From sequence record PV683228.1: a DNA stretch of 64,000 nucleotides, one strand, 5' to 3'. Positions 50,131-51,179 of the stretch are shown here, piece by piece (the stretch's first letter is position 1; the number at the start of each line of letters is the position of its first letter). A program made the position numbers and the translations under genes. This stretch comes from Escherichia phage EcF-vB. The notes beneath the pieces are model-generated. The model ran no database searches, was not told the DNA's origin, and saw nothing but the letters and a program-made list of their open reading frames with translations.

Positions 50131-51179
50131 CTGAAGGTAAAGCCTTATAAAGGGCTATCTGTACAGTTGAGGGGTAAATACTAGGGAGAAACTGAAAAGA
50201 GCCTATAAAGGGCTATAGAAAGCTTTTAAAAGGGCTATTTAAAAGGTCACTAAGAGGAGAAGGGAACGATAAGACCAGAGATAGTGACCATGTTAATAGC
50301 TTGTTAAAAAGGTTAAACACTTGTTAGGAACTTGTTAATTATCTTAACAAAATAACTCTTTAAAATTAACTTGTTAGCTATTGTTAGTCATCTGTTAAGA
50401 TTCTGTAAAGCCTATTCAGCACTTGTTAATTGGTATTGTTACCAATCCCTAGAAAACTGTTACCCTCTTGTTAAAACTGTTAGGAATCTGTTAAGACCTT
50501 TAAAGAGATGTTAAAGAGATGTAGCAACTGTTAAGAGATTGTTAATGATATTTTAAAATTTTGCAAAGGGGGTGTTAAGGAGCTGTTAAGGGCTACCAAG
50601 CAGATATACATCTTCTACAGATATTTTTGAGTTCCTTCAAAGACCCTAAAAAAATGACTAGACAGTCTTATTTTATAAAAATTTTAAAATTCTGAATAAT
50701 TACCTATACAGTCTTTTAAAAATACAGGTAGAAACAGGCTTATAAGATACCTTGTTAGTACCGTGTTAGACCTTGTGAGATAAGGTCTGTGAAGATATTC
50801 CTGTTAAGTTTGTTAAAACAGTCTATATAGAGGCTTAGTAATACCTAGTGAACACCTATAGAGGGTAACATAGCTAACCTAGAGATTAAGAGGTGTATAG
50901 GAGCTTCTAAGAGGGTGTAGAGGGATGATTAAGGTGATTGTATAGGTTGTTAAGAAGGCTTGTTAGAAGAGTGTTTAGAAGGCTTATACAGAGGGGCTAT
51001 TAAGACCACTAGATAGTTACTAAGATACTATATAATACTATATAACTATATAGAGAGTAAGATTAAGAAGGTTGTTAAGAAGGATAGATATTTTTGTTCA
51101 CATATGATGGTGACCCAGAGGTTGGGACAACCGATAAAATTTTATAAAAATTAAAAAGCCCCCAATTAAGGAGGCTCTT
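50131..51179. repeat. unique AT-rich central spacer between inverted-repeat arms, dense in short repeats
   Basis: >=18 copies of TGTTA(A/G) between 50291 and 50590 with spacings mostly 10-11 or 20 bp; three copies of CTATAAAGGGCTAT (50144, 50202, 50225); ACTATATAA tandem at ~51030-51060; GTTGTTAAGAAGG copies at ~50930-51090; no ORF of note. Confidence 0.8.
51153..51176 (-). terminator. intrinsic terminator-like hairpin + U-run after gene 51188..51859
   Basis: minus-strand RNA AGCCUCCUUAAUUGGGGGCUUUUU; near-identical to element at 1813..1837. Confidence 0.5.

What the first reader, a model, noticed from the sequence alone, without database searches (positions are those of the whole stretch)
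50131..51179. Central 1 kb spacer is an array of helically phased TGTTA(A/G) sites plus other direct repeats
At least 18 TGTTA(A/G) copies lie between 50291 and 50590 with centre-to-centre spacings mostly 10-11 or 20 bp, so they fall on one face of the helix. That pattern is typical of iterons, partition centromeres or cooperative regulator binding arrays. Further copies occur at 50750-50820 and 50930-51090, alongside CTATAAAGGGCTAT x3 and an ACTATATAA tandem. The region is AT-rich and non-coding, making it a candidate origin, packaging or partition site for a phage-plasmid-like lifestyle.
Basis: partly seen in the sequence, partly recalled or inferred. Interest (0 to 1): 0.8.

Follow-up and report, generated by a model that had tools for sequence, protein, structure and literature searches.

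The report
Phased motif array in phage terminal repeat
The repeat-rich 1 kb is real. It is the direct terminal repeat and adjoining left-end non-coding DNA of a Felix O1-like virulent phage, the place where the genome is cut and packaged, and not a plasmid origin or partition site.

Summary
In 50131-51179 there are 25 TGTTA copies (23 TGTTAR) on the + strand against 2.3 expected, and 2 TAACA (1 YTAACA) on the - strand. The 18 copies in 50291-50589 are phased at 10.4 bp.

The window is Felixounavirus DNA. Positions 50137-50599 align to positions 157-618 of the experimentally mapped ~610-bp direct terminal repeat (DTR) of phages UAB_Phi87 and UAB_69. The DTR ends right after the last motif copy (TGTTAAGGGCTACCAA, 50584-50599). 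Positions 50600-51179 are unique left-end non-coding DNA up to the terminator of the first gene.

The array, its phase and a mirrored motif copy at each DTR boundary are conserved in Felixounavirus, Mooglevirus and Kolesnikvirus, although the surrounding sequence diverges.

Best reading, by inference: a cis-acting packaging signal bound by a small-terminase-like protein. The candidate is the DUF5681 protein, which is essential in Bas63 and sits just upstream of TerL in unrelated phages. It would position the terminase cuts.

No Rep or Par genes, DnaA boxes or lysogeny genes were found, so the phage-plasmid, partition and iteron-origin readings are not supported.

The "central spacer" framing is misleading. 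The 13-kb palindrome is unique to this contig, lacks the first ~155 bp of the DTR, and looks like an error-prone assembly artefact.

The parts
50137..50599 (+). Right-hand three quarters of the phage's direct terminal repeat (equivalent to positions 157-618 of the UAB_69 DTR). The first ~155 bp of the DTR are absent from the window.
   Evidence: blastn against the published UAB_69 DTR sequence: 79% identity over 475 columns. Alignment A1. DTR sequences taken from the supplements of PMC11350853 and PMC4837284.
50291..50589 (+). Phased array of 18 TGTTA cores (consensus YTGTTAR), all in one orientation, on a ~10.4-bp lattice. Degenerate copies fill several of the gaps.
   Evidence: The same lattice is found in relatives.
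50584..50599 (+). Right DTR boundary element TGTTAAGGGCTACCAA. The physical right terminus of virion DNA maps at its last bases (50597-50599).
   Evidence: UAB_Phi87 and UAB_69 run-off sequencing. The exact 694-bp terminal duplicate in record NBSal004 ends ...GGGCTACC.
50558..50569 (+). ATTTTGCAAAGG, a block inside the DTR about 30-40 bp from the right boundary, conserved across three genera.
50598..50610 (+). AAGCAGATATACA, a block straddling or just outside the right DTR boundary, conserved across three genera.
   Evidence: (the only part that still matches Kolesnikvirus by blastn)
50144..50238 (+). Middle DTR segment with three (Y)TATAAAGGGCTAT-type elements (50144-50158, 50203-50216, 50224-50238), each a small AGCC...GGCT inverted repeat. 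It holds no TGTTA copies.
50429..50450 (+). 22-nt palindromic insert ATTGGTATTGTTACCAATCCCT, lying inside a TGTTA^A motif copy. Its presence and position vary between phages.
50600..51153 (+). Unique non-coding DNA at the left end of the genome, between the DTR and the first gene. It holds 7 more TGTTAR copies in three clusters (50753-50816, 50948-50966, 51073-51078).
51027..51053 (+). AT-rich tandem ACTATATAA-T-ACTATATAA-CTATATAG, annotated only as 'repeat_region' in related records.
51154..51179 (-). Intrinsic terminator ending the leftward operon (the Felix O1 ORF40 to ORF24 homologues).
   Evidence: Terminators are annotated at the same place in wV8 and Maleficent.
50102..50136 (.). Junction between the inverted left arm and DTR position ~157. 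It lies where the reverse complement of the terminator hairpin resembles the first AAGCC..GGGCT element. No related record has this junction.
58492..58686 (+). Truncated copy of the DUF5681 gene (64 aa against 123 aa in Felix O1 ORF41), the candidate small terminase. The second copy is in the left arm at about 43312-43506 (-).
34296..35897 (-). Large terminase gene (Felix O1 ORF52 homologue), split here into three ORFs by single-base indels.

Best explanation
The region is the genome-end module of a Felix O1-like (Felixounavirus) virulent phage. Positions 50137-50599 are most of its ~600-bp direct terminal repeat. Positions 50600-51179 are the unique non-coding DNA between that repeat and the first gene at the left end.

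In replicating concatemers the repeat is present once per junction. The terminase must cut at both of its boundaries so that each packaged genome carries a copy at each end.

I propose that the YTGTTAR copies are binding sites for the packaging-specificity protein. About 30 copies sit on a 10.4-bp lattice and so lie on one face of the helix. The likely protein is the DUF5681 protein acting as small terminase. It would polymerise on the DNA, or wrap it, as proposed for lambda gpNu1 at cosB or SPP1 G1P at pac. This would mark the junction for the large terminase.

The outermost motif copies point in mirror orientation at the two boundaries (TAGCCCCC-TTAACA... on the left, ...TGTTAA-GGGCTA-CCAA on the right). 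I propose they set the two cut positions on opposite strands, and the repeat is then duplicated by fill-in synthesis as in T7.

Shown: identity with the mapped terminal repeat, the position of the boundaries, enrichment, phasing and conservation of the motif, and essentiality of the DUF5681 gene. Inferred: that the motif is protein-bound, which protein binds it, and the cutting mechanism.
For: 1. The window is Felixounavirus DNA: 288 phage records match, the best at 92-93%.

2. 50137-50599 aligns to positions 157-618 of the DTR mapped by Bal31 digestion and run-off sequencing in UAB_Phi87 and by sequencing in UAB_69. That DTR ends ...GATGTTAAGGGCTACCAA, equivalent to window 50584-50599.

3. 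The boundaries are confirmed independently. Record NBSal004 carries an exact 694-bp copy at both ends (GCCCCCTTAACA...GGGCTACC). Kolesnikvirus SPARTY carries an exact 439-bp copy. PhageTerm-derived DTRs of 581 and 613 bp are reported for other members.

4. Enrichment and phasing hold in the window.

5. The same holds in ten relatives from three genera: 19-31 forward TGTTA against 2-3 expected, and a period of 10.3-10.4 bp with R 0.74-0.88. Kolesnikvirus DNA is alignable over only 12% of the region. Selection therefore acts on the motif lattice, not on the exact sequence.

6. A three-part layout is conserved: inverted copies at the left boundary, a motif-free middle, and a forward array running up to the right boundary. 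The first motif copy, read inward from either terminus, is TTAACA. In Felixounavirus it lies at nt 9-14 and 11-16. In Kolesnikvirus it lies at about nt 18-23 and 20-24.

7. Candidate binder. Felix O1 ORF41 is a DUF5681 protein. Distant DUF5681 genes overlap the start of the large terminase gene in two unrelated phage contigs. In the Bas63 knockout screen the DUF5681 gene scores -3.1 to -3.5 in MG1655. TerL scores -1.9 to -2.8, portal -2.7 to -4.1 and capsid -3.6 to -4.5, while its neighbours score positive. The AlphaFold model shows a basic N-terminal arm, a small helical domain and one long helix.

8. Precedent checked here: T7 has 12 CCTAAAG-type heptamers in one orientation, at 13-bp spacing, directly after its 160-bp terminal repeat.
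Against: There is no binding, footprint or mutational evidence for the motif in any Ounavirinae phage. None of the papers I could search mentions it.

The DUF5681 protein is not shown to be a small terminase. PHROGs lists it as unknown function. The model has pLDDT 66, and neither Foldseek against the PDB nor a sequence search of the PDB found anything. Whichard et al. found no TerS in Felix O1.

Seven motif copies lie outside the repeat, up to 480 bp away. The array is therefore not simply 'the repeat'.

As far as I know, the function of the T7 heptamer arrays is itself unsettled.

The mirror-boundary argument rests on termini known only to about +/-2 nt (up to 10 nt at the left end of UAB_Phi87).

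The window cannot show a functional element, because it lacks the left boundary and the first ~155 bp of the repeat.
Confidence: 0.55

Rival explanations
1. Replication origin or replication-associated element. The TGTTAR copies would be iteron-like sites for an initiator or a primosome-loading protein. The AT-rich ACTATATAA tandem (51027-51053) would be the unwinding element. Terminal repeats would then double as origins or as sites of recombination-dependent replication.
For: The layout is directly repeated sites plus a nearby AT-rich tandem. G+C is 33% and several 40-nt stretches are at least 85% A+T. Motif copies flank the tandem at 50948, 50961 and 51073. The GC skew changes sign here. 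T7 has secondary origins near its ends (my own knowledge).
Against: The GC-skew switch is explained by convergent transcription and by the palindrome. There is no DnaA box, IHF site or GATC. The annotated Felix O1 genome has no Rep-type initiator; its replication genes are T7-like (primase/helicase, PolA-type polymerase, exonuclease, ligase), and such systems do not use iterons. The repeat unit is a 5-6-bp core on a 10.4-bp lattice, not a 17-22-bp iteron. The dense array stops exactly at the terminase cut site.
Confidence: 0.15
2. Binding array for a different DNA-binding protein that acts on the first or last DNA to enter the cell. Candidates are the phage Cro/C1-type HTH regulator (window 9490-9789), an injected end-protection protein, or a host nucleoid protein. 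The role would be end protection, control of DNA ejection, or silencing of transcription that runs into the ends.
For: The HTH_3 protein is real (E = 5e-10; PHROG transcriptional regulator). Both flanking operons converge on this region in related genomes. On the - strand each motif reads TTAACA, a 5/6 match to the sigma-70 -35 hexamer, and one 10/12 promoter-like site lies at 50578-50550.
Against: Promoter-like sites are not significantly enriched: 15 found against 10.2 +/- 2.8 in shuffles. There is no gene for such promoters to drive. Nothing links the HTH protein to this motif. The motif is not enriched anywhere else in 63 kb, as operator sites for a regulator would be. Boundary-locked mirror copies are not expected for a regulator.
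Confidence: 0.15
3. No protein recognition. The lattice would be a by-product of slippage or duplication of a 10-11-bp unit, or would serve only to give the terminal DNA an intrinsic curvature.
For: The array behaves like a degenerate 10.5-bp tandem repeat. Indels of whole units and of a 22-23-nt palindrome occur between relatives.
Against: The TGTTA core is invariant in 25 of 25 copies, while the flanking positions vary. The core, the phase and the orientation rules persist across three genera whose surrounding sequence is no longer alignable. This argues for sequence-specific selection.
Confidence: 0.08
4. Partition centromere or plasmid origin of a phage-plasmid.
For: Helically phased 10-11-bp arrays resemble ParR-bound parC sites (my own knowledge). 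There is a weak HTH_ParB hit for the regulator, 20.4 bits against a cut-off of 22.6.
Against: All 288 relatives are virulent Ounavirinae with linear genomes carrying terminal repeats. No ParA/ParM, ParB/ParR, Rep or integrase appears in the Felix O1 annotation. The ParB hit is below threshold and overlaps a generic HTH_3 match.
Confidence: 0.02

Closest known systems
Direct terminal repeat of Felixounavirus phages (UAB_Phi87, 608 bp; UAB_69; Pr103Blw, 581 bp; Ro111lw, 613 bp)
   Same: The sequences are homologous: 79% identity to UAB_69 over DTR positions 157-618, and 90-93% to the same region in the closest genomes. The right boundary is the same, and so is the flanking gene (Felix O1 ORF24 homologue) with its terminator.
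   Different: The window lacks the first ~155 bp and the left boundary, which are replaced by an inverted copy of the right flank. The published reports give the repeat's length and sequence only. None describes the phased motif lattice or the mirrored boundary copies.
Phage T7 terminal repeat with its adjacent arrays of short repeats (checked on NC_001604)
   Same: T7 is also a virulent phage with a short exact terminal repeat and T7-like replication genes. A 5-7-bp motif in one orientation is repeated 12 or more times at a short, regular spacing at the genome end. A few copies lie inside the repeat.
   Different: The T7 motif is CCTAAAG at 13-bp spacing, so it is not helically phased, and it lies mainly just outside the 160-bp repeat. 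Here the motif is YTGTTAR at 10.4 bp, mainly inside a ~600-bp repeat, with inverted copies at the far boundary.
Small-terminase recognition sites: lambda cosB (R3-R2-R1 plus IHF), SPP1 pacL/pacR, P22 and Sf6 pac (from my own knowledge)
   Same: These are multiple short binding sites next to the terminase cut site. DNA bending or wrapping by an oligomeric small terminase is proposed for them.
   Different: Those sites number 3-7, not ~30, and they serve cos or headful packaging rather than exact terminal repeats. Binding has been demonstrated for them; here it is inferred. The candidate protein (DUF5681) is not a recognised small-terminase family.
Plasmid iterons and type II partition sites (R1 parC, pSK41 centromere; from my own knowledge)
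   Same: They are directly repeated sites phased at about 10-11 bp and bound cooperatively on one face of the helix.
   Different: No initiator or partition genes are present, the lifestyle is virulent, the core is far shorter than an iteron, and the array is locked to the terminase cut sites.

Membership tests
Felixounavirus/Ounavirinae short direct terminal repeat | Sequence homology to an experimentally mapped terminal repeat | tested here: met
   blastn of the published UAB_69 DTR against the window: positions 157-618 match 50137-50599 at 79%. Alignment A1.
Felixounavirus/Ounavirinae short direct terminal repeat | Right boundary element (...TGTTAAGGGCTACCAA followed by GCAGATATACA) | tested here: met
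   50584-50610. The same element is present in Felix O1, heid, wV8, NBSal004, Maleficent and Sf17.
Felixounavirus/Ounavirinae short direct terminal repeat | Left boundary element (TAGCCCCC followed by 2-4 inverted TTAACA copies) | tested here: not met
   It is absent from the whole window. Homology starts at DTR position ~157.
Felixounavirus/Ounavirinae short direct terminal repeat | Present at both ends of virion DNA (two-fold read coverage, read-start pile-ups at the boundaries) | not testable with these tools
   No reads are available. It is shown only for relatives.
Small-terminase recognition (pac/cos-type) site | Lies at or next to the terminase cleavage positions | tested here: met
   The array ends at the mapped right terminus, and mirrored copies sit at the left terminus in relatives.
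Small-terminase recognition (pac/cos-type) site | Multiple conserved short binding motifs | tested here: met
Small-terminase recognition (pac/cos-type) site | A small terminase is encoded by the phage | tested here: inconclusive
   The DUF5681 protein is a candidate by gene position in other phages and by essentiality in Bas63. It has no family annotation and no structural match.
Small-terminase recognition (pac/cos-type) site | Specific binding of the small terminase to the motif, and a packaging defect when the motif is mutated | not testable with these tools
   This needs EMSA or footprinting and genetics.
T7-type short-repeat arrays at the terminal repeat | Short motif in one orientation repeated 10 or more times beside or inside the terminal repeat | tested here: met
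   Window. T7.
T7-type short-repeat arrays at the terminal repeat | Same motif or spacing as T7 (CCTAAAG, 13 bp) | tested here: not met
   YTGTTAR at 10.4 bp against CCTAAAG at 13 bp.
Iteron-type replication origin | Iterons of about 17-22 bp with a cognate Rep initiator gene | tested here: not met
   The conserved core is 5-6 bp. No Rep gene appears in the Felix O1 annotation of 3.9-71 kb.
Iteron-type replication origin | AT-rich unwinding element, DnaA or IHF sites | tested here: inconclusive
   An AT-rich tandem is present at 51027-51053. No DnaA box or IHF consensus was found.
Partition centromere (parS/parC) | Adjacent partition ATPase and centromere-binding protein genes, and plasmid or prophage maintenance | tested here: not met
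   No such genes in the window flanks or in the Felix O1 annotation. The family is virulent.

The most novel reading that the evidence does not exclude
Ounavirinae would use a previously undescribed type of terminal-repeat packaging signal. About 30 YTGTTAR sites on a 10.4-bp lattice would wrap onto an oligomer of the DUF5681 protein, which would then be a new small-terminase family. Mirror-oriented outermost sites would measure out the two strand-specific cuts that define the repeat. The 22-nt palindromic insert found at TTA^A inside motif copies would be a scar of cleavage at the motif itself.
Probability: 0.3. Interest if true: 0.6.

Novelty: new member of a known kind. Interest (0 to 1): 0.4.

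Why it matters
How phages with short exact terminal repeats recognise and duplicate their ends is understood, and only partly, for T7 and T3.

Felix O1-like phages are widely used for Salmonella typing, biocontrol and therapy, yet they have no identified small terminase or packaging signal.

This analysis ties a conspicuous, conserved, helically phased motif lattice to the mapped genome ends, and names an essential protein of unknown function as its likely reader. That gives a directly testable model. It would also help to annotate termini correctly in the many deposited Ounavirinae genomes.

For the scan itself, the finding is an identifiable, largely ordinary feature of a known phage family. 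It is not a new mobile-element or plasmid system. The surrounding palindrome should be treated as an assembly problem.

Tried and rejected
1. Source of the contig. The 143-aa product of 51856-52287 is not in the gene-position collection. The 36-nt junction sequence is absent from IMG/VR. No phage record covers the left junction. The origin and independent support for the palindrome therefore remain unknown.

2. Non-coding RNA. An Rfam scan of 49600-51600 gave only a sub-threshold Phe_leader hit, 26.8 against 55 bits. Rejected.

3. Promoter cluster. Promoter-like sites were 15 against 10.2 +/- 2.8 in shuffles, which is not enriched.

4. Small-terminase identification by structure. The AlphaFold2 model of the DUF5681 protein has pLDDT 66. 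Foldseek against the PDB gave no hit with E < 4, and phmmer against PDB sequences gave none. This is uninformative, not negative.

5. ORF51 (66 aa, directly upstream of TerL), and the ORF23, ORF24 and ORF25 homologues, have no Pfam family and only 'unknown function' PHROGs.

6. The UAB_Phi87 and UAB_69 GenBank records are not opened at the physical ends. The boundaries had to come from the papers' supplements.

7. The Bas63 knockout data contain no intergenic insertions, so they give no direct test of the array.

8. A literature search for Felixounavirus transcriptomics or promoters found nothing.

9. Biological divergence of the inner 900 bp of the left arm was considered and rejected. It is the same pair of ORFs riddled with frameshifts, and the arms elsewhere differ by single-base indels only.
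Full report
**What is in the sequence**

The interval 50131-51179 is 33% G+C and non-coding. It holds 25 TGTTA cores, of which 23 are TGTTA(A/G), all on the + strand. Only one YTAACA lies on the - strand. Dinucleotide-preserving shuffles give 2.3 and 1.5 on average, with maxima of 12 and 9 in 2000 shuffles. No other 300-bp stretch of the 64-kb window comes near this density.

Eighteen cores lie in 50291-50589: 16 TGTTAR and 2 TGTTAC. Neighbour spacings are 9-13, 20-21 or 31-33 bp in 15 of 17 cases. 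A Rayleigh-type test gives a best period of 10.4 bp with R = 0.74. Only 0.24% of random placements reached this. The five core positions never vary. Position -1 is mostly T, position -2 mostly C, and position +5 is A or G.

There is one exact and two imperfect CTATAAAGGGCTAT, and two exact ACTATATAA plus a partial third.

**What the region is**

The window is DNA of a Felix O1-like myovirus (Ounavirinae, Felixounavirus). The 1.1 kb matches 288 phage records, 238 of them over at least 80% of its length. The best matches are at 92-93% identity.

In Felix O1 the homologous stretch lies in a 1.6-kb gene-free gap between two convergent operons, ORF23 on one side and ORF24 on the other.

Two papers from one group mapped the physical genome ends of Felixounavirus UAB_Phi87 (Bal31 digestion plus run-off sequencing) and of UAB_69. 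They print the ~610-bp direct terminal repeat (DTR) in their supplements. That sequence is this array. Window 50137-50599 aligns to DTR positions 157-618 (alignment A1). The printed repeat ends ...GATGTTAAGGGCTACCAA, which is window 50584-50599.

Two deposited genomes that carry the repeat at both ends give the same boundaries to within 2 nt:
- NBSal004: an exact 694-bp copy, GCCCCCTTAACA...GGGCTACC.
- The Kolesnikvirus SPARTY: an exact 439-bp copy.

PhageTerm-based repeats of 581 and 613 bp are reported for two further members.

So 50137-50599 is the right three quarters of the terminal repeat. Positions 50600-51153 are unique non-coding DNA at the left end of the genome. Positions 51154-51179 (- strand) are the intrinsic terminator of the leftward operon.

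**Conservation**

I compared ten relatives from three genera:
- Felixounavirus: Felix O1, heid, wV8, NBSal004.
- Mooglevirus: Maleficent, Sf17.
- Kolesnikvirus and allies: Ep030, PMBT37, SPARTY, vEam_W_25.

The gap holds 19-31 forward TGTTA against 2-3 expected. The 330 bp before the right boundary are phased at 10.3-10.4 bp, with R from 0.74 to 0.88. Kolesnikvirus DNA is alignable to the window over only 12% of the region, the part around the right boundary. Even so, it keeps the motif, its orientation and its phase. This indicates selection on the lattice rather than on the sequence.

A three-part layout is shared:
- a left boundary with 2-4 motif copies in inverted orientation (TAGCCCCC-TTAACA-TTTTC-TTAACA...), followed by 3-5 forward copies;
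- a ~190-bp motif-free middle with AAAGRGCTAT-type elements;
- a ~310-bp forward array that runs to the right boundary.

Read inward from either terminus, the first motif copy is TTAACA. In Felixounavirus it lies at nt 9-14 and 11-16. In Kolesnikvirus it lies at about nt 18-23 and 20-24. Two further blocks are conserved in all three genera: ATTTTGCAAAGG (50558-50569, inside the repeat) and AAGCAGATATACA (50598-50610, straddling or just outside the right boundary).

**How it most likely works**

What is established is the location of the array. It fills the DNA segment at whose two edges the terminase cuts concatemers, and it stops at one of those edges.

From this I infer that the YTGTTAR copies are protein-binding sites on one helical face that mark the concatemer junction for packaging. 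This would be comparable to small-terminase sites at lambda cosB or SPP1 pac (my own knowledge). I further infer that the mirror-oriented outermost copies position the two cuts. Cuts on opposite strands followed by fill-in synthesis, as proposed for T7, would then regenerate a repeat on both daughter ends.

Whichard et al. found no small terminase in Felix O1. I propose the DUF5681 protein (Felix O1 ORF41) as the candidate:
- Distant DUF5681 genes overlap the start of the large terminase gene in two unrelated phage contigs, the canonical small-terminase position.
- In the Bas63 knockout screen, the DUF5681 gene 129 scores -3.1 to -3.5 in MG1655. TerL scores -1.9 to -2.8, portal -2.7 to -4.1 and capsid -3.6 to -4.5. 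Its neighbours, genes 128 and 130, score positive.
- The predicted structure has a basic N-terminal arm, a small helical domain and a long helix. However, pLDDT is 66 and no PDB match was found.

I put 0.95 on 'this is the terminal-repeat and left-end module' and about 0.5 on 'the array is the packaging recognition signal read by a small-terminase-like protein'.

**Rivals**

Replication origin. This reading is not excluded for the unique part. There, three motif copies flank the AT-rich ACTATATAA tandem. Against it: there is no DnaA box, IHF site or GATC. Felix O1 has no Rep-type initiator and has T7-like replication genes. The conserved unit is 5-6 bp, not an iteron. The GC-skew switch is explained by gene orientation.

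Regulator or end-protection array. This would use, for example, the HTH_3 protein at 9490-9789 and remains possible. However, promoter-like sites are not enriched, and the motif is not enriched anywhere else in the window.

By-product of slippage. This is unlikely given the invariant core and the conservation across genera.

Partition centromere or phage-plasmid. This has no support.

**The 'central spacer' framing**

The window carries an inverted repeat of at least 13 kb, with arms at 37111-50100 and 51180-63822. Mapped on Felix O1:
- the right arm, the spacer and the partial repeat are the native left end of the genome;
- window 1-50100 is the rest of the genome in reverse;
- the native right-end genes (ORF3-23) are missing.

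Several observations point to an error-prone, probably long-read, assembly:
- No phage record has this arrangement.
- The arms differ by single-base indels, many in homopolymers: 8 indels and 0 mismatches in 5.2 kb.
- The inner 900 bp of the left arm are the same two ORFs riddled with frameshifts at 75-89% identity.
- The essential large terminase gene is split into three ORFs, and the DUF5681 gene is truncated.
- Each arm has its own large deletion, of 1063 and about 720 bp.
- The join (50102-50136) sits where the reverse complement of the terminator hairpin resembles the first AAGCC...GGGCT element.
- The join removes the first ~155 bp of the repeat, including the left cut site.

Assembly artefacts and frameshifts around terminal repeats are documented for T7-like phages. 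I conclude, at about 80%, that the palindrome is a chimeric or fold-back assembly product, or at best a rare defective molecule. The 1 kb is not a spacer in any functional sense.

**Comparison with what is known**

The object itself, the Felixounavirus terminal repeat, is already known and its sequence is published. I found no description of its internal lattice, the mirrored boundaries or a cognate protein.

The nearest analogue I could check directly is T7. Twelve CCTAAAG-type heptamers at 13-bp spacing follow its 160-bp terminal repeat, and three copies lie inside it. The idea is the same, but the motif, period and placement differ.

I therefore rate this as a new member of a known kind (terminal-repeat or packaging-signal regions built from short repeats). 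Interest is moderate. It offers a testable packaging model for a widely used phage family, but it is neither surprising in kind nor a new system.

Noticed in passing
window 37111-50100 and 51180-63822: Inverted duplication of at least 13 kb around the finding. The arms differ by single-base indels (8 indels, 0 mismatches in 5.2 kb). One arm has a 1063-bp stretch (40824-41887) missing from the other, and the other has about 720 bp (54180-54899) missing from the first. The inner 900 bp of the left arm are a frameshift-riddled copy of the ORF24/25 homologues. This is most likely a chimeric or fold-back assembly artefact.
   Followed up: yes
window 34296-35897 (-) and 58492-58686 (+): The large terminase gene is broken into three ORFs. 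The DUF5681 gene is truncated to 64 aa, against 123 aa in Felix O1. Single-base indels are scattered through the contig relative to Felix O1. Consensus quality is therefore low, and protein-level calls from this window need care.
   Followed up: partly
window 50429-50450: A 22-nt palindromic insert, ATTGGTATTGTTACCAATCCCT, sits exactly at TTA^A inside a motif copy. The same insert lies in a different, inverted motif copy in wV8 and occurs three times in NBSal004. It is absent from Felix O1, Mooglevirus and Kolesnikvirus. It contains TACCAA, the sequence of the right genome terminus. It may be a small mobile or repair-scar element that targets the motif.
   Followed up: partly
L003 (Escherichia phage humlepung MN850564) 1-69: This independent GenBank record starts with the reverse complement of DTR positions 89-157 joined to DTR position 20 onward. 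The join is through inverted motif copies. It is a second example of an inverted junction inside this terminal repeat, and one breakpoint (DTR ~157) coincides with the one in the window.
   Followed up: partly
MG969406.1 (Salmonella phage GE_vB_B3, UNVERIFIED, 109,375 bp), locus L014: This is an Ounavirinae record about 23 kb longer than its relatives. It starts inside the terminal repeat, holds the region twice and carries a truncated DUF5681 protein. It may be a comparable mis-assembly.
   Followed up: no
Felix O1 ORF41 homologue (window 58492-58686; proteins P0001-P0057): DUF5681 proteins share an invariant N-terminal FKKGQSGNPxGRPKGS motif. They sit directly upstream of the large terminase gene in unrelated phage contigs and are essential in Bas63. 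The family may be an unrecognised small terminase.
   Followed up: partly
window 40824-41887 versus 60107/60108: The right arm lacks about 1.1 kb of the tRNA cluster (Felix O1 23284-24429: tRNA-Pro, Glu, Met, Asn, Tyr, Asp) that the left arm retains. This is either population heterogeneity or a collapse of repeats during assembly.
   Followed up: no
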